From NCBI GenBank assembly GCA_041737125.1, contig JBGSSJ010000014.1, positions 134,375 to 193,758 on the forward strand: a stretch of 59,384 nt of DNA, in the 5' to 3' direction. Below the pieces are notes generated by a model, which worked only from the letters and a program-made list of their open reading frames with translations, made no database searches and had not been told where the DNA came from. Position numbers and translations under genes: made by a program. Shown piece by piece: positions 2 through 59,384 of this stretch (its first letter is position 1; each line of letters starts with the position of its first letter). Source of the DNA: Minisyncoccia bacterium (GTDB lineage: Bacteria > Patescibacteriota > Minisyncoccia > Phycocordibacterales > UBA9973).

Positions 2-589
2 ATGTCCTCCCGTAAGGGCAATGTTGTTACTGGCGAATCTTTACTTCGAGACTCTATGGATGTAGTGAGAGAGAAAGTAGCAGAGCGAGAATTAACAGAA
101 GAAGAGAAGAATAATATTGCAGAAATTGTGGGTGTATCAGCACTTAAGTACTCAATTCTCCGTTCGTCACTTGGCTCTGATATTGTTTATGATTTTGAGA
201 AGTCTATATCGTTCGAAGGGGACTCTGGTCCATATTTGCAGTACACAGCAGTGCGCGCAAGCTCTATTTTGAAAAAAGCAGATGAATTGGAATTACGAAT
301 TACTAATTACGAATTACTAATTATACCTGAAGAAGTTACTACCTTAGAGAAAACCCTATATCAATTTGGAGAAGTTGTTGCTAGGTCATACTCACTTCTT
401 GAACCACATCATATAGCTACTTATCTTACAGAGCTTGCGAGTGCATTCAATACTTTCTATGGTAACACTATTATCGTAGATAAGAATGACCCTCATACTC
501 TATACCGCCTTGCTCTAGTTCAAGCATTCCATATAACCATGAAAAACGGTCTCTATCTTCTCGGTATAAAAACTCCAGAGAAGATGTAA
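2..589 (+). CDS. argS: arginine--tRNA ligase, C-terminal part (anticodon-binding DALR domain); 5' end outside the window
   Basis: ORF open from the window edge; HHIATYLTELASAFNTFY and a C-terminal ...EKM are typical of ArgRS. Confidence 0.88.
   Translation: MSSRKGNVVTGESLLRDSMDVVREKVAERELTEEEKNNIAEIVGVSALKYSILRSSLGSDIVYDFEKSISFEGDSGPYLQYTAVRASSILKKADELELRITNYELLIIPEEVTTLEKTLYQFGEVVARSYSLLEPHHIATYLTELASAFNTFYGNTIIVDKNDPHTLYRLALVQAFHITMKNGLYLLGIKTPEKM
291..323 (+). repeat. tandem 14-nt repeat AATTACGAATTACT x2.4 (ATTACGA heptamer family) inside argS, translated ELRITNYELLII
   Basis: 291-304 and 305-318 are identical; frame checked against the ORF. Confidence 0.9.
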
Positions 590-591
590 AT

Positions 592-1095
592 ATGAAGAAA
601 ATTATAATCATAGGTATGACTGGGTCAGGGAAGACGACACTTGCGCAAGAAATTAGCAAGGAATTGGATATACCTATCTACTACTTGGATTTGATTTTCT
701 GGAATGAAGAGGGCTATTTGAAGGATAGGGAATTCACAATAGAACAAGAGAAGATTATGGCACACGACAAATGGATTATAGACGGATCTTTTCCTAGATC
801 AAAGTCTCTCGATTTGCGAATACAAAATGCCGATACTATTATCTTCTATGATCTACCTCTACTTGTAATTCTATGGAGGCAGTTGAAAAGGTATATAAAG
901 TATCGGAATAAAGTGAGGCCAGATTTCGGGAAGAAGCAGCCTTACCCATTCACGATAAAGGATTTAAAATATGCTATGGATTATCCTAAGGATATGATTT
1001 ATGAGAAGCTAGAGGCTCTCGGGAAAGGGAAGGACATATATGTCATTCGGAATAATATAGATCAAAATAACTTTTTAAATAAAATAAAAAAATAA
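592..1095 (+). CDS. P-loop NTPase, adenylate-kinase / topology-modulation (FlaR-like) family
   Basis: N-terminal Walker A GMTGSGKTT; 167 aa; start 3 nt after the argS stop. Confidence 0.65.
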   Translation: MKKIIIIGMTGSGKTTLAQEISKELDIPIYYLDLIFWNEEGYLKDREFTIEQEKIMAHDKWIIDGSFPRSKSLDLRIQNADTIIFYDLPLLVILWRQLKRYIKYRNKVRPDFGKKQPYPFTIKDLKYAMDYPKDMIYEKLEALGKGKDIYVIRNNIDQNNFLNKIKK

Positions 1096-1119
1096 TCCTA
1101 TGCTGAAGCAGCATAGGAT
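1095..1119 (+). terminator. hairpin ATCCTATGCTG-AAG-CAGCATAGGAT followed by a T-rich tract
   Basis: 11-bp perfect stem overlapping the stop codon. Confidence 0.55.
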
Positions 1120-1255
1120 GTATTTAATATTTTAGATGTCAAAGCTTGCCATGATAGGAGTGAATGGTTAATACTAGACTTAAGTATAAGTATTCACTCG
1201 AATGGAGCTTTGATTTTTAAGTTACAATTTTGCTAATTTAGCAGGTTCTACTTCA

Positions 1256-1285
1256 ATAGAATATATCATATATGATATATTCTAT
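1256..1285. repeat. perfect 30-bp palindrome ATAGAATATATCATA|TATGATATATTCTAT
   Basis: The sequence equals its own reverse complement; it lies upstream of the ileS leader. Confidence 0.9.
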
Positions 1286-1354
1286 GCAAGTCTTATTCTG
1301 TGGATAATTAAGCCGTCTTGCAAAAATAGCATTTTATAGTTATTCTATATGTAT

Positions 1355-1514
1355 GCGTTGAAAGGGCTATCACCCTGGAGCTTCGGAAAGAAAGCGTAAG
1401 CAAGTAAAATCCGGCGGGTAAGCCCGTTATAGCTGTAATGAGAATAAACTAAGGTGGTACCGCGATTAAAATCGCCCTTGGAAATAATATTTTATTATTT
1501 TTATGGGCGATTTT
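1355..1514 (+). promoter_or_regulatory. T-box leader RNA with Ile (AUC) specifier and a start-codon sequestrator
   Basis: Conserved T-box AAGGTGGTACCGCG at 1451-1464. An antiterminator-like helix (1451-54/1476-79 and 1462-66/1471-75) has a 7-nt bulge TGGTACC. AUC-A at 1369-1372 sits in a GGG..CCC loop. The alternative helix 1468-1477/1505-1514 covers the G of the ileS ATG. Confidence 0.75.
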
Positions 1515-4500
1515 AATTTTATGGAACAAGACAAAAAATCAGACAATGCAATAAGAGAGGAAAAAATTCTAGAACTATGGAAAGAGAATAATACTTTCAA
1601 AAAAAGTTTGGAGAAGGATGCTCCGAAAGGGAACTATGTTTTCTACGATGGTCCTCCTTTTGCGACAGGGCTTCCTCACTATGGTCATATACTAGGTAGT
1701 ACTGCTAAAGATGTTATCGGTAGGTACAAGACGATGCAAGGCTATCGTGTTCCACGTCGCTGGGGCTGGGATTGCCACGGCTTACCTATTGAGAATATTG
1801 TCGAGAAAGATTTAGGTATTTCAGGGAAGAAGGCTATCGAAGCGCTTGGTGTAGATAAGTTCGTAGGGCATGCTCGCAGTAAAGTACTCACTTATGTTTC
1901 TGAATGGCACAAGACTGTCGACCGTATGGGCCGCTGGGTGGACTTTGATAATTCATATAAGACTATGGATAACAGTTTCATAGAGAGTGTATGGTGGGCC
2001 CTCGGTGAGATGAATAATAAAGGATTACTATATGAAGGTGTGCGAGTGCTAGCCTACTGTCCGAGATGTGAGACTCCAATAGCCAACTCTGAAATAGCCA
2101 TGGACAATAGCTACAAAGATATTACTGATATCTCAGTTTATGTGAAGTTCAGATTAGTTGATAAAGAGAATACATATTTACTTGCTTGGACTACTACGCC
2201 ATGGACTCTGCCAGGTAATACTGCAATAGCTGTGAATAACGAGATAGATTATATATACGTAAAGAATGAAAATGACACCTTAATTTTAGCGAAAGAATTA
2301 TTTGAAAAACTAAAAGAGAAATTTACTAATCCCGAAATTATAAAAGAAGTGAAAGGAAGTGAATTGGTGGGCCTTTCTTACGAACCAGTATTTCCATATT
2401 ATAAAAATGTTGATATGCCAAATAAGGAAAACATTTGGAAAGTTTGGCATGCAGACTTCGTGACCGCTGATCAAGGCACAGGTATTGCTCATGAAGCTCC
2501 AGCATTCGGTGAGGACGATATGAACTTGGCAAAGGAGCATAATATTCCTTTTATTCGCCATGTAGAGCCGAATGGATTCTTCACCAAAGAAGTTACTGAT
2601 TTCCCAGATGTAAAAGCGAAACCGAAAGACGACCCACAATCGACCGATGTTCTTGTAATTAAATATCTTGCAGGTAAAGGAACTCTTTTTGCCAAAGAAA
2701 AAATAATTCACTCATATCCACATTGCTATCGTTGCGATACACCGCTACTTTACTATGCATTACCATCATGGTTCGTGAATGTACAGAAAGTGAAGAATGA
2801 AATGCTAGAGAAAGCAAAGACCATGAACTGGATTCCAGAACATTTAAAGGAGGGTAGGTTCAAAAATATTATGGATAATGCTCCCGACTGGACTATCTCT
2901 CGTAATCGCTATTGGGCAAGTCCTTTACCTATATGGAAGTCGAAAGAGGGCAAGCTCATGTTTGTAAATTCACTCGATGATCTAAAAGCTAAAACAAAGA
3001 AAAGTGGGAATAAATATCTAGTTATGCGTCATGGAGGCACTATTGGTAATGTGTCAGAGCTAATAAGCTACAAGAATCAAGAGACAGATCATCTAACTAG
3101 AGAAGGCTGTGACCAGGTACGCGAAACAGCTGCGCAATTAAAATCCGAGAACATAGACTTGATAGTGTATTCTACATTTACTCGTACTCATCAGACTGCA
3201 GAAATAGTTCGTGATGCCTTAGGCTTGGATAAAGAGAAGATGATTCCTGATGCAAGATTAATAGAAATAAATCCTGGAAATTTCGATAGCAAAACATGGA
3301 ATGATTACCATGCTCACATTGCAAATAGTATAGGCATGGATTGGTTCACAGAGAAGATTGGTGGAGGTGAATCCCTTCACGATGTACAGAAGCGTACAGC
3401 AGAAGTGCTATATGAACTAGAAGAGAAATACAAAGGGAAGAATATACTAATAGTTACTCATGGAGGTCCGGCATGGCTATGCTTCGTGAATGCAGGGTTA
3501 TTCGTACCGGAGAATAAAGAGTACCAAGTTGCAAATACTCATATATTCGTCTCAGACTTCAAGCGCTTTAGTAATGCAGAAGTGCGCCCACTTGATTTCG
3601 TGCCGATACCACATAATCATGAGTACGAGCTTGATTTACATAGGCCATATATCGATAATATAAAACTTATAGATGAAAATGGTGAAGAATATAATCGCAT
3701 CCCAGAAGTTATCGATTGCTGGTTCGAGTCTGGTTCTATGCCTTTTGCTCAGGATCACTATCCATTCGAGCGTCCAGACTGGCAGAAAGAAAATTTCCCT
3801 GGTGGATTTGTGGCTGAATATATTTCACAAACTCGAACGTGGTTCTACTACACACACATCATCTCTACTATATTATTCGGCAAAGCTCCATTTGAGAATG
3901 TGGTGACTACTGGTACTGTTCTTGCAGAAGATGGACAGAAGATGTCGAAGTCGAAGAATAATTTCCCTGACCCATGGCTTATATTTAATAGTTTCGGAGT
4001 CGACGCACTGCGCTTCTATCTGATGTCCTGTCCTGTGATGAGAGGAGAGGATTTGAACTTCTCCGAGAAAGGAGTCAAAGATATAACAAGTAAGATAATC
4101 ACTCGATTGGATAATGTTGTAGCTTTCTATGAATTGTATAGAGATAAAGGATTAGAAGGGAATGCGAATACGAGCACATCTACTAATGTTTTGGATATAT
4201 GGATTACTTCTCGATTAAATGAGCTTGTAAAAGAATCTACAGAGAATATGGAAATTTATGACATGACTTCAGCTACACGACCTTTTGAGCTATTCATAGA
4301 AGACTTGTCTACTTGGTATTTGCGTCGCTCGCGCGACAGATTAAAAGATGGTGATAGAGATGCAAGGCAGACTCTATATACTGTACTGAAATCAGTATCA
4401 GTATTACTTGCACCATTTACTCCATTCTTGGCAGAAGATATCTGGCAGAAATTAAAGGGAGAAAATGATGTAGAGAGTGTGCATTTGGCGAAGTGGCCGG

Positions 4501-5000
4501 AAAATGGAAGTCCGGATGTGGAAATTATTAAAGAGATGAGCCAGGCAAGAGAAATAGTAACTCTGGGACTACAAGCAAGACAGAAAGAAAATATAAAAGT
4601 TCGTCAGCCACTTAGTCAATTACGAATTACGAATTACGAATTAGGAATGGAATATCAGGAAATCATAAAAGATGAATTGAATATTAAGGAGATAAAATTC
4701 GAGAAAGGCGAAGAATTAAAAGTTGAATTAGATACGAATATAACAGAAGACCTTAAGAAAGAAGGCCAGTATCGCGAGCTCGTGCGTGCTGTACAAGATA
4801 TGCGTAAAGCGGATGGATTAAGTCCTAGTGATATAGTGACTCTAGTTATCGCTACTAATACTGATGGTGAAGAACTCATAAGTCTATTCAAAGATGAATT
4901 CATGAAAGTAGTAGGAGCAAAAGAAATACAGATGGGGGATAATGATGGCACAGAAGTGAAGATAGATGAATTATTATTTATGATAAATATTTTAAAATAA
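1503..5000 (+). CDS. ileS: isoleucine--tRNA ligase (type 2 layout) with an embedded histidine-phosphatase domain
   Basis: PHYGHILG (HIGH), KMSKSKNN (KMSKS), WTTTPWTLPGN editing domain, DCWFESGSMP; 1165 aa. Confidence 0.95.
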   Translation: MGDFNFMEQDKKSDNAIREEKILELWKENNTFKKSLEKDAPKGNYVFYDGPPFATGLPHYGHILGSTAKDVIGRYKTMQGYRVPRRWGWDCHGLPIENIVEKDLGISGKKAIEALGVDKFVGHARSKVLTYVSEWHKTVDRMGRWVDFDNSYKTMDNSFIESVWWALGEMNNKGLLYEGVRVLAYCPRCETPIANSEIAMDNSYKDITDISVYVKFRLVDKENTYLLAWTTTPWTLPGNTAIAVNNEIDYIYVKNENDTLILAKELFEKLKEKFTNPEIIKEVKGSELVGLSYEPVFPYYKNVDMPNKENIWKVWHADFVTADQGTGIAHEAPAFGEDDMNLAKEHNIPFIRHVEPNGFFTKEVTDFPDVKAKPKDDPQSTDVLVIKYLAGKGTLFAKEKIIHSYPHCYRCDTPLLYYALPSWFVNVQKVKNEMLEKAKTMNWIPEHLKEGRFKNIMDNAPDWTISRNRYWASPLPIWKSKEGKLMFVNSLDDLKAKTKKSGNKYLVMRHGGTIGNVSELISYKNQETDHLTREGCDQVRETAAQLKSENIDLIVYSTFTRTHQTAEIVRDALGLDKEKMIPDARLIEINPGNFDSKTWNDYHAHIANSIGMDWFTEKIGGGESLHDVQKRTAEVLYELEEKYKGKNILIVTHGGPAWLCFVNAGLFVPENKEYQVANTHIFVSDFKRFSNAEVRPLDFVPIPHNHEYELDLHRPYIDNIKLIDENGEEYNRIPEVIDCWFESGSMPFAQDHYPFERPDWQKENFPGGFVAEYISQTRTWFYYTHIISTILFGKAPFENVVTTGTVLAEDGQKMSKSKNNFPDPWLIFNSFGVDALRFYLMSCPVMRGEDLNFSEKGVKDITSKIITRLDNVVAFYELYRDKGLEGNANTSTSTNVLDIWITSRLNELVKESTENMEIYDMTSATRPFELFIEDLSTWYLRRSRDRLKDGDRDARQTLYTVLKSVSVLLAPFTPFLAEDIWQKLKGENDVESVHLAKWPENGSPDVEIIKEMSQAREIVTLGLQARQKENIKVRQPLSQLRITNYELGMEYQEIIKDELNIKEIKFEKGEELKVELDTNITEDLKKEGQYRELVRAVQDMRKADGLSPSDIVTLVIATNTDGEELISLFKDEFMKVVGAKEIQMGDNDGTEVKIDELLFMINILK
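4618..4643 (+). repeat. (AATTACG)x3.7 heptamer array inside ileS, translated QLRITNYELG
   Basis: Direct reading; frame verified. Confidence 0.9.
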
Positions 5001-5443
5001 TGCTCAAAGAACAATGTTATGGAATAGTCATAGTTTATAAAGAACAAAATGAGAACTTTTTTCTTCTGTTACAACAATACAATAAACTCTTTTCTAAAGG
5101 TTCATGGTCATTCCCCAAAGGTCATCATGAAGGTACGGAAAAACCAAAAGATACAGCATTAAGAGAATTGGAGGAAGAAACCGGAATTACAGAAGTTGAA
5201 TTTGTAGATTTTCCTCTTATATATGAAGAGTATTGCATAGAAAGAAAAGGAGAAAAAATTTTAAAGATAAATGAGTATTTTATCGGTTTTGTAAAAGATA
5301 AAAAAGTGACTCCACAAGAGGGGGAGATAATAGATTACAAATGGCTTTCTTATGAAGAAGCTATGGATACTTTTGTATTCAAGAAAGAAGATAGGCAAAA
5401 AGTCCTAAAACAAGCCAAGGAATGCTTGGATATGCTCAATTAA
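5000..5443 (+). CDS. NUDIX hydrolase
   Basis: Nudix box GHHEGTEKPKDTALRELEEETG; start overlaps the ileS stop (ATAATG). Confidence 0.85.
   Translation: MLKEQCYGIVIVYKEQNENFFLLLQQYNKLFSKGSWSFPKGHHEGTEKPKDTALRELEEETGITEVEFVDFPLIYEEYCIERKGEKILKINEYFIGFVKDKKVTPQEGEIIDYKWLSYEEAMDTFVFKKEDRQKVLKQAKECLDMLN
5404..5434 (+). repeat. direct repeat copy 1 (last codons of the NUDIX gene)
   Basis: 28 of 31 nt identical to 5833-5863. Confidence 0.85.
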
Positions 5444-5444
5444 A

Positions 5445-5468
5445 AACCACCTCTATTTTTAGGTGGTT
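5445..5468 (+). terminator. hairpin AACCACCT-N8-AGGTGGTT after the NUDIX stop
   Basis: 8-bp stem. Confidence 0.5.
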
Positions 5469-5517
5469 GGTTAATTAATTGTTATTTCGATGTCTTCCTT
5501 ATTGTAAGGAAGCTTGT

Positions 5518-5775
5518 CTAAAAAATTTCTATAATAAGGTCTCCTAGAATTTTCTGCAGATATCCAGAAGTATGTTTTTGGAGTTTTATATTAATAAAAA
5601 TCTTTTTTACTTCTAAAGAGTGAGCTGAAAAGTTTATTACCGTTTCCCTCCCAAATTTCTTTAGAAGGTCTTTCATGGCACAACGTGTTGGGGTGGTAGT
5701 TGAGGAGTCACCCATAACTACAGTTTCTTGTTTAGGGTATTTTACAATAACCCTGTTGGTGTTTATCTTTTTCAT
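5518..5775 (-). CDS. hypothetical protein (85 aa) on a ~400-bp insert
   Basis: ORF with an upstream TAGAAT box and a downstream hairpin CTTCCTTA-TTG-TAAGGAAG; no recognisable motif. Confidence 0.4.
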   Translation of the reverse strand: MKKINTNRVIVKYPKQETVVMGDSSTTTPTRCAMKDLLKKFGRETVINFSAHSLEVKKIFINIKLQKHTSGYLQKILGDLIIEIF

Positions 5776-5832
5776 TTCAGAGTTGTTTTGTTTGTTGTTA
5801 TTCTAGCTATATTTGAGAAATGTCCATACCTA

Positions 5833-5863
5833 CCTAAAACAAGCCAAGGAATACCTAGATATG
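5833..5863 (+). repeat. direct repeat copy 2 (orphan NUDIX 3' end, would read LKQAKEYLDMVK*)
   Basis: Matches 5404-5434; its stop lies 4 nt before the next gene. Confidence 0.85.
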
Positions 5864-5876
5864 GTAAAATAGAGGT

Positions 5877-6272
5877 ATGAAAACAATCTTAATAGACGCA
5901 GTCTATACTTTTATTATCGAGACCGAGGGTAATTTTGGTGTGTTTAAAGATATGTATGACCTACTTGAGAAATTCCCAAATAAGAAAATAATTCTTACAA
6001 ATGCCTCAGATGATAAATTTGAAACATATGGATTAAATAATTTACCATACGAATTTTTTACACTTAAACATAACCCAGATAAAATAGATCCGAAATACTT
6101 TGAGACTTTCTTGAATGAGTTTAATCTAACAATAGATGATGTTATTTACTTTGAGCACGACATAGAAGCCGTCAAAAGTGCTGAGTCAGTAGGAATAAAA
6201 AGTTATTTTTACGATGAAAATAAAAAAGATTTAGTAGGCTTAGAGAATTTCCTAAAAGAGAATTTATTATAA
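5877..6272 (+). CDS. HAD-like hydrolase family protein (small, atypical motif I)
   Basis: ILIDAVYT, ILTNAS, FEHD arrangement resembles HAD motifs I, II and IV. Confidence 0.45.
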   Translation: MKTILIDAVYTFIIETEGNFGVFKDMYDLLEKFPNKKIILTNASDDKFETYGLNNLPYEFFTLKHNPDKIDPKYFETFLNEFNLTIDDVIYFEHDIEAVKSAESVGIKSYFYDENKKDLVGLENFLKENLL

Positions 6273-6856
6273 TGCATCACATTTACCACACAAATAGTTT
6301 TATATTGAGTTCGAGGAATAAAGGTGAAGCGAATAAGATGCTCACCTTATATACTCGTGAGATGGGGCTCGTGCGGGCAGTGGTGCAAGGTATCAGGCTC
6401 GGTAAGTCTAAGCTCCGCTTTGCACTCCAAGACTTTTCTTATGCAAATATTGATCTCGTAAGAGGCAAGGAAATGTGGCGTGTGACTTCAGCTACGAATA
6501 TTACTTCATTCCCATTTGCGCGTGCTGACAAACAGTCACTATTACTCATCGCTCGTATTAGCAAACTCATTGAGAGGTTCTGCGATGGGGAAGAAGCCAA
6601 TATACAAATATTTGATGAGTACATCCAAGCCCTGTACTTACTCGATGATGAATCTATGGAGAAAAGTAAGCGTGAGGCACTCGAGCTTCACCTAGTGCTT
6701 AGTATTATGAATCGCTTGGGCTATATCGGCGAGTCGGATTTATTATTGAATTATTTATCGAAGCCATTCGGAGAGATAGAGATAGAAGAATTATTGAAGG
6801 AGCGCCAGTCTATTATCTCACATATTAATAAGGCTCTGAATGAAAGTCAGCTTTAA
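6272..6856 (+). CDS. recO: DNA repair protein RecO
   Basis: The N-terminal OB-fold region resembles RecO (ILSSRNKGEANKMLTLYTREMGLVRAVVQG); 194 aa. Confidence 0.75.
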   Translation: MHHIYHTNSFILSSRNKGEANKMLTLYTREMGLVRAVVQGIRLGKSKLRFALQDFSYANIDLVRGKEMWRVTSATNITSFPFARADKQSLLLIARISKLIERFCDGEEANIQIFDEYIQALYLLDDESMEKSKREALELHLVLSIMNRLGYIGESDLLLNYLSKPFGEIEIEELLKERQSIISHINKALNESQL

Positions 6857-6870
6857 GATAATGTTCTATA

Positions 6871-6879
6871 TGGTATAAT
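6871..6879 (+). promoter_or_regulatory. extended -10 TGgTATAAT, 7 nt before ATG 6887 (leaderless geometry)
   Basis: Sequence match and spacing. Confidence 0.45.
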
Positions 6880-6886
6880 AAAACTT

Positions 6887-8791
6887 ATGTCAGATAATGA
6901 ACATCCATTAAATAAAATTGAAGATATAAAGCGCCACCTCTATGACCGTGAAGATACTGTGACGAACAGGCCTCGTGAGGGCACACTGCATCCGATTGCT
7001 CACCATGTACCTGATACCTGGCAGAAAGAAGTGAAGGAAGAGATTAATATTAAAGATAATTTTAAGAAGCCACCTATGTCACCATTCAAAAAATTCTTCA
7101 TGGGAGCGTTCGTATTCTTTGTTGCAGCTTTGGGATTTGCATACTATATGTTTTCGAATGAAAGAGTATCTGTATCAAATGAGAAGATAGAAATTACTGT
7201 CATAGGTAATGCATTCACAAAGGGGGGCGAAGAATTACCACTTCAAATAGAGATAAGGAATAATAATAATGCGAACCTAGAGCTCGCTGACTTACTAATA
7301 GAGTATCCGAAAGGGGCGAGTGATAGCCCTACTGATGTTGTCCGTATGCCACGCGATACAGTGGGCACCATAGAGAGTGGAGGTACAGTTATCCGTAATA
7401 TTAAAGTGAAGCTTTTCGGCGATGAGAAGTCAGCCCGAAATATAAAGATAACTTTGGAGTATCATCCACAAGGCTCGAACGCTATCTTCACGAAAGTAAA
7501 AGAATATCCTGTAACCATTAGTACTTCACCCCTTTCTCTGACTATCGAGGGTCCAGATCAGACTGCATCAGACCAGCTTATAACCTTCAAAGTAAGAGCA
7601 TCTCTAAATACCTCACTACCGGAAGGCGAATCTGTTATACAGGTGTCTTATCCAAATAATTTTATTTTTGAAAGTGCTACTCCTATGCCATCGTTGGGCA
7701 AGAACATATGGAGCATGGGATCTCTTACTCAAGAAGAACCTTTGAATATTGAAATAAAGGGTCGCTTATTGGGAGAAGATAATGATGAACAAATTTTCCA
7801 TGTCTATGCGGGTACTACGAGCCCATCTAATCAGTCTGTGGTAAATGTAGTTTATAATTCATTGCTGAAGAGTGTACTTATAACGAAGCCTTTCTTGGAA
7901 GCTCGTATCCTTGTAAATGGGCAAGATTTACCTAGCTACACTGCCAATGGTGGCTCTAATGTTAGTGGGCAGATTTATTGGATGAATAATCTTCCGAATC
8001 GTATCACAGATGCAGAAGTCATACTGAAGCTCTCAGGTAATGTACTTGATAAAGAACAAGTGGAGACACTCGATGGATACTACGATTCTACTAACAGTCA
8101 GATTGTGTGGAATAAGAATACAAGTGAAGATTTGGGTTCTATCGAGCCAGGAGCCAGTGGGTACCTATCTTTTAATTTCAAGCCTGTGTCTCTAGTAGGA
8201 GCATCTTCTATCAAAGATCCTCAAGTAGTACTCGATGTAAGCATAAAAGGCAGACAACCGTCAGAGGGGTTTACTTATAATGAAGTGAATAATTTCATAA
8301 ATAAAACTGTAAAAATATCTTCTGATTTCCAGATTGCATCATCTGCATCTTTCTTATCTGGTTCACTTCCACCCAAAGCAGAGACAGAAACAAGGTACAC
8401 TGTAACATGGACATTGTCTAACTCCTCTAACAATGTTACAGGAGCACAAGCAAAAGCCATTCTACCTATCTATGTAAAGTGGGCAGGGAAGACTGCTGGC
8501 TCAAATGAGAATATTTCTTACAATGAATCAACTAGGGAAGTAATATGGAATATAGGTTCCGTCCGAGCAAATACTGGTTTTGATGCAATGAACCGTGAAG
8601 CTTCATTCGTACTATCACTTACTCCTTCACTTTCACAAGTGGGAGCCGTGCCTCAGCTTATGAAGGAAGTCTCCCTCTCTGGAACCGATAGCTTTACAGG
8701 TACTGTGGTGAAGAGTACTCGTGGGCCGATCACTACTTCCCTCCGTAATGACCCGAGCTTTGCGCCTGGTAATGAACGTGTTATAAAGTAA
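6887..8791 (+). CDS. hypothetical N-terminally membrane-anchored extracytoplasmic protein (634 aa)
   Basis: Long ORF with one TM segment (FFMGAFVFFVAALGFAYYMF); the remainder looks beta-rich. Confidence 0.7.
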   Translation: MSDNEHPLNKIEDIKRHLYDREDTVTNRPREGTLHPIAHHVPDTWQKEVKEEINIKDNFKKPPMSPFKKFFMGAFVFFVAALGFAYYMFSNERVSVSNEKIEITVIGNAFTKGGEELPLQIEIRNNNNANLELADLLIEYPKGASDSPTDVVRMPRDTVGTIESGGTVIRNIKVKLFGDEKSARNIKITLEYHPQGSNAIFTKVKEYPVTISTSPLSLTIEGPDQTASDQLITFKVRASLNTSLPEGESVIQVSYPNNFIFESATPMPSLGKNIWSMGSLTQEEPLNIEIKGRLLGEDNDEQIFHVYAGTTSPSNQSVVNVVYNSLLKSVLITKPFLEARILVNGQDLPSYTANGGSNVSGQIYWMNNLPNRITDAEVILKLSGNVLDKEQVETLDGYYDSTNSQIVWNKNTSEDLGSIEPGASGYLSFNFKPVSLVGASSIKDPQVVLDVSIKGRQPSEGFTYNEVNNFINKTVKISSDFQIASSASFLSGSLPPKAETETRYTVTWTLSNSSNNVTGAQAKAILPIYVKWAGKTAGSNENISYNESTREVIWNIGSVRANTGFDAMNREASFVLSLTPSLSQVGAVPQLMKEVSLSGTDSFTGTVVKSTRGPITTSLRNDPSFAPGNERVIK

Positions 8792-24995: not shown

Positions 24996-25520
24996 ATGAT
25001 TTATTTTATAAGGCATGGAGAATGCGAAGCAAATGAGAGGAAAGTATTTGCTGGGCAGAAAGATGATTCTATTTTAACGGAGAAAGGCAAAGAACAAGCC
25101 AAATCGACAGCAAAAGAGATAATATCAACAGGGATAAAGATAGATAGAATAATAAGCTCTCCTCTAAGTAGGACAATGGAAACTGCTCATATAGTAGGTA
25201 GTGAGCTTGGTTTTGATAATTCAAAAATAATAGAAGATGGGCGTATTATCGAGTATGATCTAGGGGATTTGTCTGGGAAGCCATGGAATCCAGTTATCGA
25301 TTTGGTGGGGGCAAAAGGTGCTGAGGACCCATATGCTTTTAGGGATAGAATAATGTCTTGTATTATGGAGTTATCCAAATTAGAAGGGAATACTCTACTC
25401 GTAAGCCATGGCATCGTAGCTAGAATGCTGAAGACCATAAAAGCTGGTAATGATATAAAGACCTTCAACGGAATGCCAACACTAGAAAACGCTTCTATCC
25501 TAAAAATAGATTGGGTTTAG
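24996..25520 (+). CDS. histidine phosphatase (phosphoglycerate-mutase-like) family protein
   Basis: MIYFIRHGECEAN, SPLSRTMETA, LVSHG. The tracked TTG start at 24963 lies inside the promoter, so ATG 24996 is preferred. Confidence 0.85.
   Translation: MIYFIRHGECEANERKVFAGQKDDSILTEKGKEQAKSTAKEIISTGIKIDRIISSPLSRTMETAHIVGSELGFDNSKIIEDGRIIEYDLGDLSGKPWNPVIDLVGAKGAEDPYAFRDRIMSCIMELSKLEGNTLLVSHGIVARMLKTIKAGNDIKTFNGMPTLENASILKIDWV

Positions 25521-58997: not shown

Positions 58998-59384
<387 letters not shown>

What the first reader, a model, noticed from the sequence alone, without database searches (positions are those of the whole stretch)
2994..3626. Complete histidine-phosphatase (PGAM-like) domain embedded in the catalytic core of IleRS
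ileS encodes 1165 aa. About 210 residues (aa ~498-708) interrupt an otherwise colinear type-2 IleRS. They lie between ...PIWKSKEGKLMFVNSLDDLKAK and ELDLHRPYID, segments that are normally only about a dozen residues apart, upstream of KMSKS. The insert carries the histidine-phosphatase signature elements in canonical order. These are LVMRHGG (RHG at nt 3027-3035), STFTRTHQTAE, GGGESL and LIVTHGG (His codon 3459-3461). It therefore looks catalytically competent rather than decayed. The frame is continuous and no intein-type junctions are present. A free-standing member of the same superfamily sits at 24996-25520. I do not know of an aaRS with a phosphatase inserted in its Rossmann fold. Any role, such as alarmone or nucleotide hydrolysis, tRNA-end phosphate removal or regulation, is speculation.
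Basis: partly seen in the sequence, partly recalled or inferred. Interest (0 to 1): 0.72.

Follow-up and report, generated by a model that had tools for sequence, protein, structure and literature searches.

The report
Phosphatase domain nested inside IleRS
In this candidate-phyla-radiation bacterium, the essential enzyme that charges tRNA with isoleucine carries a complete, apparently active histidine-phosphatase domain spliced into one of its surface subdomains; the same arrangement is conserved across hundreds of related species and shows up in automatic annotation, but I found no study of it.

Summary
ORF 1503..5000 encodes a 1165-aa type-2 IleRS (TIGR00392 864 bits, cutoff 621). A His_Phos_1 domain interrupts it at aa 506-687 (E = 9e-31), and the whole insert spans aa 498-708.

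It is not an assembly artefact. All 120 best full-length homologs (63-71% identity) carry the domain, and so do at least 237 species-level Patescibacteria genomes. ileS is a single intact ORF in 67 of 81 loci examined.

The insert evolves about twice as fast as the IleRS core. Even so, R509, H510, R561, E588 and H653 are invariant or nearly so, and HYGH, KMSKS and the editing motifs are also kept. AlphaFold2 models both parts with confidence. The insert's nearest structures are small-molecule phosphatases (GpgP, PspA, CobC, PhoE).

- The insertion site is the variable, sometimes zinc-binding CP3 subdomain, not the Rossmann core.
- The general-acid Glu is E588, not the Glu of GGGES.

Peregrinibacteria IleRS carries two or three such domains in CP3, and other variants carry up to four, all with intact catalytic residues.

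Best reading: a bifunctional IleRS with an active phosphomonoesterase whose substrate is unknown. Sequences and automatic dual names are public, but I found no literature on it. Interest 0.62.

The parts
1503..5000 (+). ileS, 1165-aa type-2 IleRS with a nested phosphatase domain
   Evidence: ORF. TIGR00392 scores 864 bits against a cutoff of 621. Best solved-structure hits are IleRS2 8c8v (E = 1.5e-224) and 1ile. The AF2 model has pLDDT 89.2 and pTM 0.81. Foldseek gives 1ile TMt 0.90 and 8c8v TMt 0.80.
1677..1688 (+). HIGH signature (HYGH, aa 59-62) of the synthetic site
   Evidence: 100% conserved in 120 homologs.
2187..2207 (+). CP1 editing-site motif WTTTPWT (aa 229-235)
   Evidence: 93-100% conserved in 120 homologs. 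This is the threonine-rich editing motif of IleRS (assignment from established knowledge).
2880..2921 (+). CP2-CP3 linker APDWTISRNRYWAS (aa 460-473), counterpart of the yeast IleRS linker that lines the tRNA 3'-CCA pocket
   Evidence: Read directly from the sequence. The yeast linker 453-ARDWNVSRNRYWG-465 and its role come from PMC7955072.
2922..2993 (+). Host CP3, N-terminal half (aa 474-497, PLPIWKSKEGKLMFVNSLDDLKAK). KSKEGK sits where relatives have a CxxC half zinc knuckle.
   Evidence: 16 of 68 homologs keep CxxC here and CxC after the insert. CP3 definitions come from PMC7191050 and PMC7955072.
2994..3017 (+). Entry linker TKKSGNKY (aa 498-505), strongly conserved
   Evidence: The K-K-S-G-N-x-Y columns are 90% or more conserved in 120 homologs.
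3018..3563 (+). His_Phos_1 (branch-1 histidine phosphatase) domain, aa 506-687
   Evidence: Pfam PF00300, E = 8.9e-31. AF2 model of the insert alone: pLDDT 91.4, pTM 0.90. Foldseek matches 6s2q, 4ij6, 4qih, 9mmh, 6nru and 1h2e at E = 1e-14 to 1e-11.
3027..3035 (+). R509-H510-G511: phosphate-binding Arg and nucleophilic His
   Evidence: R and H are present in 120/120, 68/68 and 116/116 for each Peregrinibacteria copy.
3183..3185 (+). R561, second phosphate-pocket Arg (FTRT)
   Evidence: 120/120 and 68/68.
3264..3266 (+). E588 (RLIEI), inferred general acid, aligned to Glu83 of PhoE
   Evidence: Alignment to 1ebb/1h2e. Conserved 120/120, 66/68 with 2 Asp, and 116/116 in both Peregrinibacteria copies.
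3369..3371 (+). E623 of GGGES, a conserved family motif (not the general acid)
   Evidence: 116/120 and 66/68.
3459..3461 (+). H653 (VTHG), second catalytic His
   Evidence: 120/120 and 68/68.
3564..3626 (+). Return segment (aa 688-708, ...NAEVRPLDFVPIPHNHEY) leading back into CP3
   Evidence: The N-A-E...F.P.PHN columns are conserved. A strand is predicted at aa 694-697.
3627..3713 (+). Host CP3, C-terminal half (aa 709-737, ELDLHRPYIDNIKLIDENGEEYNRIPEVI). IDENGEE sits where relatives have the CxC half knuckle.
   Evidence: Aligns to 8c8v from residue 480 onward. Zn-knuckle comparison. The end coordinate is approximate.
3939..3953 (+). KMSKS signature (aa 813-817)
   Evidence: 98-100% conserved in 120 homologs. 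K..K is present in 68/68.
24996..25520 (+). Free-standing His_Phos_1 paralog (context only, not part of the fusion)
   Evidence: Pfam E = 1.2e-29. 33% identical to the insert.

Best explanation
The gene encodes a bifunctional protein. The host is a complete type-2 isoleucyl-tRNA synthetase with its synthetic and editing sites intact. Its peripheral CP3 subdomain has a whole branch-1 histidine phosphatase domain of about 200 residues spliced into a surface loop.

SHOWN:
- The architecture, the exact insertion site and the confident fold of both parts.
- The same architecture in at least 237 Patescibacteria species.
- Strict conservation of the phosphatase catalytic set (R509, H510, R561, E588, H653) in a domain that otherwise diverges about twice as fast as the IleRS core.

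INFERRED:
- The domain is an active phosphomonoesterase using the standard mechanism of the superfamily. H510 attacks the phosphate, which is held by R509, R561 and H653. E588 protonates the leaving group, and water then hydrolyses the phospho-histidine.
- IleRS charges tRNA(Ile) normally.

LESS CERTAIN (my best guess, about 0.6 given an active domain): the substrate is a small phosphorylated metabolite or nucleotide, as it is for all the closest structural relatives (PhoE, CobC, PspA, GpgP, riboflavin HFP). No specific subfamily assignment is possible.

Whether the two activities are mechanistically coupled, or merely co-expressed on one polypeptide in a reduced genome, remains open. Three things argue for more than an accidental fusion: the nested position, the conserved linkers, and the recurrence of one to four intact copies in IleRS of two distant CPR classes.

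The confidence of 0.7 applies to 'bifunctional IleRS with a catalytically active nested histidine phosphatase'. The small-molecule substrate class is held with less confidence.
For: Domain calls: His_Phos_1 E = 8.9e-31, ileS equivalog above its cutoff.

Boundaries: about 203 extra residues relative to 8c8v.

Prevalence:
- All 120 best homologs carry PF00300.
- At least 237 GTDB species genomes carry the fused region. They include Nomura-, Kaiser-, Adler-, Vogel-, Zambryski- and Taylorbacteria.
- 67 of 81 loci have one intact ORF.

Selection:
- Insert conservation is 0.37-0.40, against 0.80-0.86 for the Rossmann halves. R509, H510, R561 and H653 are 120/120, and E588 is 120/120.
- The same holds in 68 sequences at about 52% backbone identity.
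- HYGH, KMSKS, WTTTPWT and the editing Asp motif are about 100% conserved.

Structure:
- Full model pLDDT 89.2, pTM 0.81, with the insert at 90-97 over most of its length.
- Insert alone pLDDT 91.4, pTM 0.90.
- The host superposes on 1ile with TMt 0.90.
- The insert matches GpgP, PspA, CobC, PhoE, HFP and TIGAR.

Site: CP3, flanked by CxxC...CxC in 16 of 68 homologs. CP3 is structurally variable and binds zinc in T. thermophilus (PMC7191050).

Recurrence:
- Peregrinibacteria IleRS has 2 copies (116 of 120) or 3 copies at two adjacent CP3 loops, with all catalytic residues kept.
- Other variants have 4 tandem copies, or a copy after KMSKS.
Against: No enzymatic activity has been measured for any member.

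No NCBIfam equivalog reaches its cutoff: CobC 82 against 163, PspA 54 against 350, dPGM_arch 64 against 225, SixA 37 against 74.5. So the substrate class rests only on fold neighbours at 20-26% identity.

Gene neighbourhood gives no functional hint. The conserved block is argS-ileS-recO-634aa, and the Nudix gene follows ileS in only 2 of 81 loci.

A phosphatase fused only for co-expression would more commonly sit at a terminus than be nested. That leaves the 'independent housekeeping enzyme' version somewhat uncomfortable.
Confidence: 0.7

Rival explanations
1. The phosphatase acts on the tRNA itself, or on a nucleotide product of the IleRS reaction. For example, it might remove a 3'-phosphate, a 2',3'-cyclic phosphate or a 3'-pyrophosphate from a damaged tRNA(Ile) CCA end so that the same enzyme can then charge it. 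Or it might degrade a nucleotide by-product or inhibitor formed at the synthetic site. On this view the nested position places the phosphatase next to the acceptor-end pocket.
For: - The insert sits in CP3, which begins directly after the CP2-3 linker. In yeast IleRS that linker lines the tRNA CCA-end pocket (PMC7955072; window aa 460-473).
- Nested insertion, conserved linkers and recurrence of 1-4 copies in IleRS only, among the hits examined.
- From my own knowledge: toxSAS/CapRel toxins pyrophosphorylate tRNA 3' ends, and Rv2228c-type proteins fuse a His_Phos domain to RNase H. NCBIfam NF005567 is hit at 74 bits against a cutoff of 326.
Against: - The Paceibacteria inserts are acidic (median pI 5.75, net charge -4). 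That is not what one expects of a surface that docks on RNA.
- All the closest structures act on small molecules.
- No branch-1 histidine phosphatase is known to me to act on tRNA ends.
- Nothing explains why only IleRS would need such repair.
- The spatial relation to the CCA pocket could not be measured.
Confidence: 0.12
2. The domain is a protein phosphatase with a regulatory role. It would remove phosphate from IleRS itself or from a partner protein, in the manner of SixA (phospho-His) or PGAM5/Sts (phospho-Ser/Thr/Tyr). One possibility is that it counteracts kinases that inactivate aminoacyl-tRNA synthetases.
For: - The superfamily includes protein phosphatases, and SixA is weakly hit (36.6 bits).
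- A fixed, nested position would suit action in cis.
- From my own knowledge: HipA-family toxin kinases phosphorylate GltX and TrpS.
Against: - The SixA score is below its cutoff of 74.5.
- At about 200 aa, with the PhoE-like 'GGES' region, the domain resembles the small-molecule enzymes rather than the shorter SixA (about 155 aa).
- No kinase is conserved in the neighbourhood.
- Two to four copies are hard to explain for autoregulation.
Confidence: 0.07
3. The domain is a pseudo-enzyme. It would be retained only as a structural or tRNA-binding or oligomerisation module that replaces the lost zinc knuckle of CP3, with no catalysis.
For: - CP3 is structurally variable between species (PMC7191050).
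- The window's protein has lost the zinc-knuckle cysteines that some relatives keep.
- The insert evolves fast overall.
Against: - The five catalytic residues and N516 are invariant or nearly so across more than 400 domain copies, at 27-40% overall identity. A scaffold role would not require that.
- Relatives that keep the zinc knuckle carry the insert too, so the insert is not a replacement for it.
Confidence: 0.05
4. The feature is an artefact or a selfish element: a chimeric assembly, a mis-joined ORF, or an intein-like or mobile insertion that is removed or is irrelevant to the mature protein.
For: - The window is from an uncultured organism.
- One related 733-kb contig has ileS broken into four ORFs (L001).
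Against: - The same junctions are found in hundreds of independent assemblies from NCBI, JGI, ENA and Logan.
- 67 of 81 loci have an intact single ORF.
- There is no GC break at the junctions.
- No intein, Hint or endonuclease family is hit.
- The linkers are conserved and insert length is constrained to 196-212 aa.
Confidence: 0.01

Closest known systems
Type-2 (eukaryote/archaeal-like) isoleucyl-tRNA synthetase, e.g. Priestia megaterium IleRS2 (PDB 8c8v) and Thermus thermophilus IleRS (1ile)
   Same: - Colinear over the whole length apart from the insert. E = 1.5e-224 to 8c8v. The model superposes on 1ile with TMt 0.90.
- HIGH, KMSKS and the CP1 editing motifs are present.
- The C-terminal Anticodon_1 + DUF5915 organisation is present.
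- The 4-Cys zinc motif of CP3 in T. thermophilus is still seen in 16 of 68 insert-bearing relatives.
   Different: - About 203 extra residues, forming a whole enzyme domain, sit inside CP3 where 8c8v has about 19 residues.
- The window's protein has lost the CP3 cysteines.
Small branch-1 histidine phosphatases: PhoE/YhfR of Geobacillus stearothermophilus (1ebb/1h2e), GpgP Rv2419c (4qih), PspA-type phosphoserine phosphatase (4ij5/4ij6), CobC alpha-ribazole phosphatase (6nru), riboflavin-pathway HFP (9mmh)
   Same: - Same fold, with TM 0.6-0.7.
- Same catalytic residues in the same order.
- Similar size, about 200 aa.
- Best sequence hit to a solved structure is PhoE, E = 2e-9.
   Different: - Those enzymes are free-standing, whereas this domain is nested in another enzyme.
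- Identity is only 20-28%.
- None of the NCBIfam equivalog models reaches its cutoff, so no substrate can be transferred by homology.
Rv2228c / SCO2299-type bifunctional RNase H-acid phosphatase (NCBIfam NF005567)
   Same: - A CobC/PhoE-like His_Phos domain joined on one polypeptide to an enzyme of nucleic-acid metabolism.
- The model hits the insert at 74 bits.
   Different: - That is an end-to-end fusion, not a nested insertion, and the partner is RNase HI rather than an aaRS.
- The score is far below the cutoff of 326.
- My description of that family's biology is from memory.
IleRS with an extra enzymatic domain: NCBIfam NF040702 'ileS_w_GNAT'
   Same: - An IleRS that carries an additional catalytic domain.
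- One relative found here, P0323, has both a His_Phos insert and a C-terminal GNAT domain.
   Different: - The extra domain is an acetyltransferase, and in P0323 it sits at the C-terminus rather than in CP3.
- The window's protein scores 336 bits against a cutoff of 1999, so it is not a member.
CP1 editing domain of class Ia synthetases (IleRS, ValRS, LeuRS)
   Same: It is the established precedent for a complete hydrolytic domain nested in the catalytic domain of these enzymes through a two-strand connection. PMC13114784 lists it as an insertion-only module.
   Different: CP1 is universal and hydrolyses mischarged tRNA. The His_Phos insert is restricted to certain lineages, is unrelated in fold, and carries out phosphoryl-transfer chemistry.

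Membership tests
Isoleucyl-tRNA synthetase (TIGR00392 equivalog) | Whole-protein HMM score above the curated cutoff | tested here: met
   864.2 bits against a cutoff of 621.4, even with the match split by the insert.
Isoleucyl-tRNA synthetase (TIGR00392 equivalog) | Class I signature motifs HIGH and KMSKS, plus the CP1 editing motifs | tested here: met
   HYGH at aa 59-62, KMSKS at aa 813-817, WTTTPWT at aa 229-235 and GTGIAHEAPAFGEDD at aa 325-339. All are about 100% conserved in 120 homologs.
Isoleucyl-tRNA synthetase (TIGR00392 equivalog) | Aminoacylation of tRNA(Ile) | not testable with these tools
   Needs a biochemical assay.
Type-2 IleRS (IleRS2) | Closer to IleRS2 and eukaryotic enzymes than to IleRS1, with a C-terminal ARD2/ARD3-type region instead of the IleRS1 zinc-binding domain | tested here: met
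   8c8v (IleRS2) E = 1.5e-224, against 1ffy and 8c9e (IleRS1) at 7e-88 and 3e-84. DUF5915 is present at the C-terminus. Foldseek ranks the IleRS2 and yeast enzymes first.
Histidine phosphatase superfamily, branch 1 (Pfam PF00300) | Domain HMM score above the gathering threshold | tested here: met
   107.5 bits in the full protein and 112 bits for the insert alone, against a cutoff of 21.7.
Histidine phosphatase superfamily, branch 1 (Pfam PF00300) | Catalytic core: RHG (Arg + nucleophilic His), second Arg, general-acid Glu, second His | tested here: met
   R509/H510/G511, R561, E588 and H653 are present. They are invariant or nearly so in 120, 68 and 2x116 sequences. E588 aligns to the PhoE Glu.
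Histidine phosphatase superfamily, branch 1 (Pfam PF00300) | Alpha/beta fold of the superfamily | tested here: met
   AF2 pLDDT 91.4. Foldseek probability 1.00 and TM 0.6-0.7 to many superfamily members.
Histidine phosphatase superfamily, branch 1 (Pfam PF00300) | Phosphatase or mutase activity through a phospho-histidine intermediate | not testable with these tools
   Needs an enzyme assay with an H510A control.
Cofactor-dependent phosphoglycerate mutase (dPGM; GpmA/GpmB/dPGM_arch equivalogs) | Equivalog HMM score above cutoff | tested here: not met
   dPGM_arch 63.8 against 225, GpmB 55 against 261, PRK01295 27.6 against 316. The JGI auto-names that say 'phosphoglycerate mutase' are therefore not supported.
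Alpha-ribazole phosphatase CobC (TIGR03162) | Equivalog HMM score above cutoff | tested here: not met
   81.7 bits against a cutoff of 162.9.
PspA-type phosphoserine phosphatase (NF045917 / PRK13463) | Equivalog HMM score above cutoff | tested here: not met
   54.1 against 350, and 54.9 against 277.
SixA phosphohistidine phosphatase (TIGR00249) | Equivalog HMM score above cutoff | tested here: not met
   36.6 bits against a cutoff of 74.5, and only the N-terminal half aligns.
Intein / mobile insertion | Hint or intein splicing motifs, a homing-endonuclease domain, or sporadic distribution | tested here: not met
   No such Pfam family was hit. The insert is fixed in all 120 close homologs and in at least 237 species.

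The most novel reading that the evidence does not exclude
The histidine-phosphatase domains were recruited into the CP3 subdomain of IleRS because they work on the same substrate cycle as the synthetase. Recruitment may have happened more than once, and the domains were then multiplied to as many as four copies. One example of such coupling would be clearing a phosphate or pyrophosphate block from the tRNA(Ile) 3' end. Another would be destroying a phosphorylated nucleotide by-product or inhibitor made at, or bound to, the synthetic site. Either would amount to a third, previously unrecognised catalytic function built into a class I aminoacyl-tRNA synthetase, alongside synthesis and editing.
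Probability: 0.12. Interest if true: 0.9.

Novelty: new variant of a known kind. Interest (0 to 1): 0.62.

Why it matters
Aminoacyl-tRNA synthetases are among the best-studied enzymes, and the domains they have gained over time are used to trace new functions. To my knowledge no phosphatase has been described inside one. Seven literature searches, and a 2026 survey of 96,219 IleRS sequences, turned up none.

Here the phosphatase is not a one-off:
- It is the standard form of an essential enzyme in large parts of the candidate phyla radiation.
- Its catalytic residues are under strict selection.
- It has been multiplied to as many as four copies.

In organisms with some of the smallest bacterial genomes, keeping 600-2400 extra bases inside ileS implies a real benefit.

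Practical consequences:
- Metabolic reconstructions of CPR genomes that count these genes as 'phosphoglycerate mutase' are probably wrong. JGI auto-names do say this.
- The insert is a clean lineage marker.
- The protein is a tractable target for expression, with a simple first experiment: phosphatase assay with and without H510A, and aminoacylation with and without the insert.

Tried and rejected
1. Nudix link. The gene at 5000..5443 overlaps the ileS stop codon and looks like an Ap4A hydrolase. But it follows ileS in only 2 of 81 related loci, so it gives no functional clue.

2. Recent duplication of the free-standing paralog at 24996-25520. Rejected: it is only 33% identical to the insert.

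3. Assembly chimera or intein. Rejected.

4. Assignment to a specific phosphatase subfamily (dPGM, CobC, PspA, SixA, GpmB, PhoE-like equivalogs). All are below their cutoffs.

5. Single origin against independent insertion. The Paceibacteria insert, Peregrinibacteria copy 1, copy 2 and the free-standing homologs are all 27-34% identical to each other. The free-standing set is biased by how it was selected, so this is inconclusive.

6. Exchange of the insert between IleRS backbones. Insert and backbone identities correlate weakly (r = 0.25), and some pairs have inserts more alike than their backbones, for example L002/L005 at 0.60 against 0.49. This is suggestive, but I built no trees, so it is left open.

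7. Charge test for RNA binding. Paceibacteria inserts are acidic. This is only weak evidence against a direct tRNA-docking role.

8. Spatial relation of the phosphatase pocket to the synthetic site. Not obtainable, because model coordinates are not exposed to scripts (one search lists /data).

9. Literature. Searches on IleRS or aaRS combined with histidine phosphatase, His_Phos_1, phosphatase domain, CPR, Patescibacteria and Peribacteria, plus targeted reading, found no description. The library excludes most subscription journals, so absence is not proof.


Full report
**Observation**

The window has an ORF at 1503..5000 (+) of 1165 aa. Pfam finds tRNA-synt_1 in two pieces, Anticodon_1, DUF5915, and between the two synthetase pieces His_Phos_1 at aa 506-687 (E = 8.9e-31, 107.5 bits against a cutoff of 21.7). 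The excised insert scores E = 3.6e-32. NCBIfam's ileS equivalog TIGR00392 scores 864 bits against a cutoff of 621, even though the match is interrupted.

GC content runs smoothly through both junctions, and no intein or Hint family is hit. The free-standing His_Phos_1 gene at 24996-25520 is real, but it is only 33% identical to the insert.

**Boundaries and site**

Against the solved type-2 IleRS of Priestia megaterium (8c8v), query residue 481 pairs with chain residue 460 and query 704 with chain 480. So about 203 residues are extra, where the ordinary enzyme has about 19.

Published domain maps place CP3 at residues 473-534 in Candida albicans IleRS and 459-526 in yeast IleRS. CP3 lies between CP2 and the second half of the Rossmann fold. 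Its topology differs between species, and it carries a zinc-binding motif in T. thermophilus (PMC7191050; PMC7955072). The insert lies inside this subdomain.

In 16 of 68 insert-bearing relatives a CxxC pair lies just upstream of the insert and a CxC pair just downstream. The phosphatase is therefore spliced into the tip of what was a zinc-knuckle hairpin. The window's own protein has lost these cysteines (KSKEGK ... IDENGEE).

'Embedded in the catalytic core' is therefore too strong. The domain sits in a peripheral, variable connective subdomain. That subdomain does begin right after the CP2-3 linker, which in yeast IleRS lines the tRNA CCA-end pocket. The window's counterpart is APDWTISRNRYWAS at aa 460-473.

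**Not an artefact, and widespread**

- A search with the full protein returned 8000 hits. The 120 best (63-71% identity, 1145-1232 aa; NCBI, JGI, ENA and Logan sources; many on contigs of 50-360 kb) all carry PF00300. One of them is a 2015-era UniRef entry from Parcubacteria GW2011_GWD2_35_7.
- A search with the insert plus its flanks found fragments carrying both families down to 34% identity.
Names include Nomura-, Kaiser-, Adler-, Vogel-, Zambryski- and Taylorbacteria, Paceibacterota and Minisyncoccia.
- In 67 of 81 loci ileS is one intact ORF. Eleven are cut by contig ends and three are interrupted.
- The block argS - ileS - ... - recO - 634-aa gene is conserved. The Nudix gene that overlaps the ileS stop codon in the window follows ileS in only 2 of 81 loci.

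**Selection**

In the 120-sequence alignment, the fraction of residues identical to the query is 0.86 and 0.80 in the two Rossmann halves, but 0.37-0.40 in the insert. Insert length stays within 196-212 aa.

Against that background:
- R509, H510, R561 and H653 are 120/120, E623 is 116/120, and E588 is 120/120.
- In 68 species-level sequences with about 52% backbone identity and about 37% insert identity, R509, H510, R561, R631 and H653 are 68/68. E588 is 66/68 with two Asp. KMSKS is kept.
- HYGH, KMSKS, the editing motif WTTTPWT and the editing Asp motif are about 100% conserved.

The alignment to PhoE puts the PhoE general-acid Glu opposite E588 in 'RLIEI'. The PhoE residue numbering (His10, Glu83, His151) is from my memory of the PhoE structure papers, and it is consistent with the printed alignment.

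Invariant catalytic residues in a fast-evolving domain are what an active enzyme looks like, not a decayed or purely structural one.

**Structure**

- AlphaFold2 with a 140-sequence alignment gives mean pLDDT 89.2 and pTM 0.81. The insert is at 90-97 over most of its length, with a dip to 70-80 at aa 660-690.
- The host part superposes on IleRS2 and yeast and Thermus IleRS (1ile TMt 0.90, rmsd 2.9 Å; 8c8v TMt 0.80).
- The insert modelled alone has pLDDT 91.4 and pTM 0.90. Its best matches, at E = 1e-14 to 1e-11 and TM 0.6-0.7, are all small-molecule phosphomonoesterases of about 200 aa: mycobacterial hydrolase 6s2q, PspA-type phosphoserine phosphatase, GpgP Rv2419c, a riboflavin-pathway phosphatase, CobC, TIGAR and PhoE.
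- By sequence the closest solved protein is PhoE (E = 2e-9).
- No NCBIfam equivalog reaches its cutoff, so the substrate cannot be transferred by homology. In particular, the 'phosphoglycerate mutase' label is not supported.

**Variants**

An exhaustive HMMER search with the insert found 5428 representatives at E <= 1e-3. Among the best 143 new ones, 29 are at least 1000 aa long, and 61 of 64 mid-length ones have IleRS motifs. So the insert's nearest relatives are mostly other IleRS inserts. Several have more than one copy.

Following one of them (P0368) showed that the normal IleRS of Peregrinibacteria/Peribacteraceae, including the complete Ca. Peribacter riflensis genome, is 1430-1650 aa, and all 120 best hits carry PF00300. 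Of these, 116 have two copies and 4 have three.
- Copy 1 is at the same CP3 position as the window's insert.
- Copy 2 is about 15 residues further on, in the loop that corresponds to the second half of the zinc knuckle.
- Both copies keep R, H, N, R, E, R and H in 115-116 of 116 sequences.

Other variants:
- Four tandem copies (P0254).
- A copy after KMSKS, just before the anticodon-binding domain (P0376).
- A protein with an IS200-like domain, a His_Phos insert and a C-terminal GNAT domain (P0323).

JGI's pipeline already names some of these proteins 'isoleucyl-tRNA synthetase/bisphosphoglycerate-dependent phosphoglycerate mutase', '/broad specificity phosphatase PhoE' or '/phosphohistidine phosphatase SixA'.

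The Paceibacteria insert, Peregrinibacteria copies 1 and 2, and free-standing homologs are all about 27-34% identical to one another. One ancient insertion and independent recruitment therefore cannot be told apart here.

**Mechanism**

Shown:
- A complete IleRS2 with a complete His_Phos_1 domain nested in CP3.
- Both parts have intact catalytic motifs.
- The arrangement is conserved across at least two CPR classes.

Inferred:
- The protein is bifunctional.
- The phosphatase uses the superfamily's phospho-histidine mechanism (H510 nucleophile; R509, R561 and H653 phosphate pocket; E588 general acid).

Best guess: the substrate is a small phosphomonoester (metabolite or nucleotide), because every close structural neighbour is such an enzyme and the Paceibacteria inserts are acidic (median pI 5.75).

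Whether the two activities are coupled is open.
- For coupling: the nested position, the conserved entry and return linkers, the site next to the CCA-pocket linker, and the repeated multiplication of the domain specifically in IleRS.
- Against, or neutral: gene context is uninformative, the surface is acidic, there is no precedent, and I could not measure distances because model coordinates are not exposed.

Rivals, with my confidence in each:
- A phosphatase for the tRNA end or a nucleotide by-product: 0.12.
- A protein phosphatase or regulator: 0.07.
- A pseudo-enzyme scaffold: 0.05.
- An artefact: 0.01.

**Comparison and novelty**

The host is a member of IleRS2, and the insert is a member of PF00300. 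Both memberships were tested and met. Membership of dPGM, CobC, PspA and SixA was tested and not met.

The nearest precedents in concept are the CP1 editing domain (a hydrolytic domain nested in the same enzymes), the RNase H-CobC fusions of actinobacteria, and IleRS with a GNAT domain.

I found no paper describing a histidine phosphatase in any aminoacyl-tRNA synthetase. It is also absent from a domain-insertion survey, a 96,219-sequence IleRS survey and the Peribacteria genome paper. The searchable library is incomplete, so this is absence of evidence only.

The sequences, and some automatic dual names, have been public for about ten years. I therefore rate this a new variant of a known kind rather than categorically new.

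Interest is 0.62. This is a surprising, strongly conserved and easily testable feature of a textbook enzyme. It scores no higher because its function is unknown and the architecture is already visible in databases.

Noticed in passing
L082 8001-12407 and L083 3955-8361 (P0379/P0368); 120 relatives: Peregrinibacteria/Peribacteraceae IleRS, including Ca. Peribacter riflensis, carries two His_Phos_1 domains (three in 4 of 120) in two adjacent CP3 loops. All catalytic residues are intact. JGI auto-names some of these proteins 'isoleucyl-tRNA synthetase/bisphosphoglycerate-dependent phosphoglycerate mutase'.
   Followed up: yes
L084 1932-6191 (P0376, 1419 aa): This IleRS has one His_Phos copy in CP3 (RHA instead of RHG) and a second copy at aa 872-1053, after KMSKS and just before the anticodon-binding domain. 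That is a different insertion site. It was seen on a single contig.
   Followed up: partly
P0254 (1161 aa, truncated) and P0357 (1087 aa): P0254 has four tandem His_Phos copies after residue 428. P0357 has copies both before and after the WFxSG motif, and a further RHG near its truncated end. Both are from short contigs, so the full architecture is unknown.
   Followed up: partly
P0323 (1066 aa, JGI contig of 11.3 kb): This IleRS has an IS200-like Y1 transposase domain at aa 340-461 (inside the CP1 region), a His_Phos insert at aa 680-854 and a C-terminal GNAT acetyltransferase at aa 935-1063. It could be a real multi-domain protein or a disrupted or merged gene call.
   Followed up: no
L001 4316-7854 (733-kb contig, ERZ25039480): The ileS homolog is split into four ORFs (496, 213, 133 and 227 aa stop-to-stop) in an otherwise syntenic argS-ileS-recO locus. 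This could be frameshift errors in a long-read assembly or a pseudogene. L011 and L055 are also interrupted once each.
   Followed up: partly
window 2922-2993 and 3627-3713, compared with 68 loci: The window's CP3 has lost the four cysteines (CxxC...CxC) that flank the insert in 16 of 68 relatives. Zinc-knuckle loss and retention are mixed across the clade, and both states carry the insert.
   Followed up: yes
Loci L002-L081; fragments P0001 and P0003: The insert is carried by at least two clearly different IleRS backbones ('DCWFESG...AEYIxQTRTWFYY' and 'DVWFDSG...DQTRGWFYTL'). Insert identity and backbone identity correlate weakly (r = 0.25). Some pairs have inserts more alike than their backbones (L002/L005: 0.60 against 0.49), which hints at exchange of the module by recombination or at very uneven rates.
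   Followed up: partly
window 5000-5443 (+): A 147-aa Nudix hydrolase with the box GHHEGTEKPKDTALRELEEETG starts at the last base of the ileS stop codon, so the two genes overlap by one base. This adjacency is found in only 2 of 81 related loci (L004, L009).
   Followed up: yes
window 2-8791 and loci L001-L081: The block argS - ileS - (variable genes) - recO - a 634-aa protein is conserved. Of 81 loci, argS is present in 57, recO in 71 and the 634-aa protein in 66. The function of the 634-aa protein was not examined.
   Followed up: partly
window 27423-27955 (-): A 100-aa ORF at 27510..27812, with a GIY-YIG-like N-terminus by eye (YYTYVLKS...YVGLTSDIDRRLNEHN), lies between tRNA-Leu (27423-27505) and tRNA-Cys (27881-27955). 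I did not check it against any profile library.
   Followed up: no
window 58998-59384 (+): The 5' end of a bacterial 16S rRNA gene (model positions 1-376) runs off the end of the window. It could be used to place the organism taxonomically.
   Followed up: no
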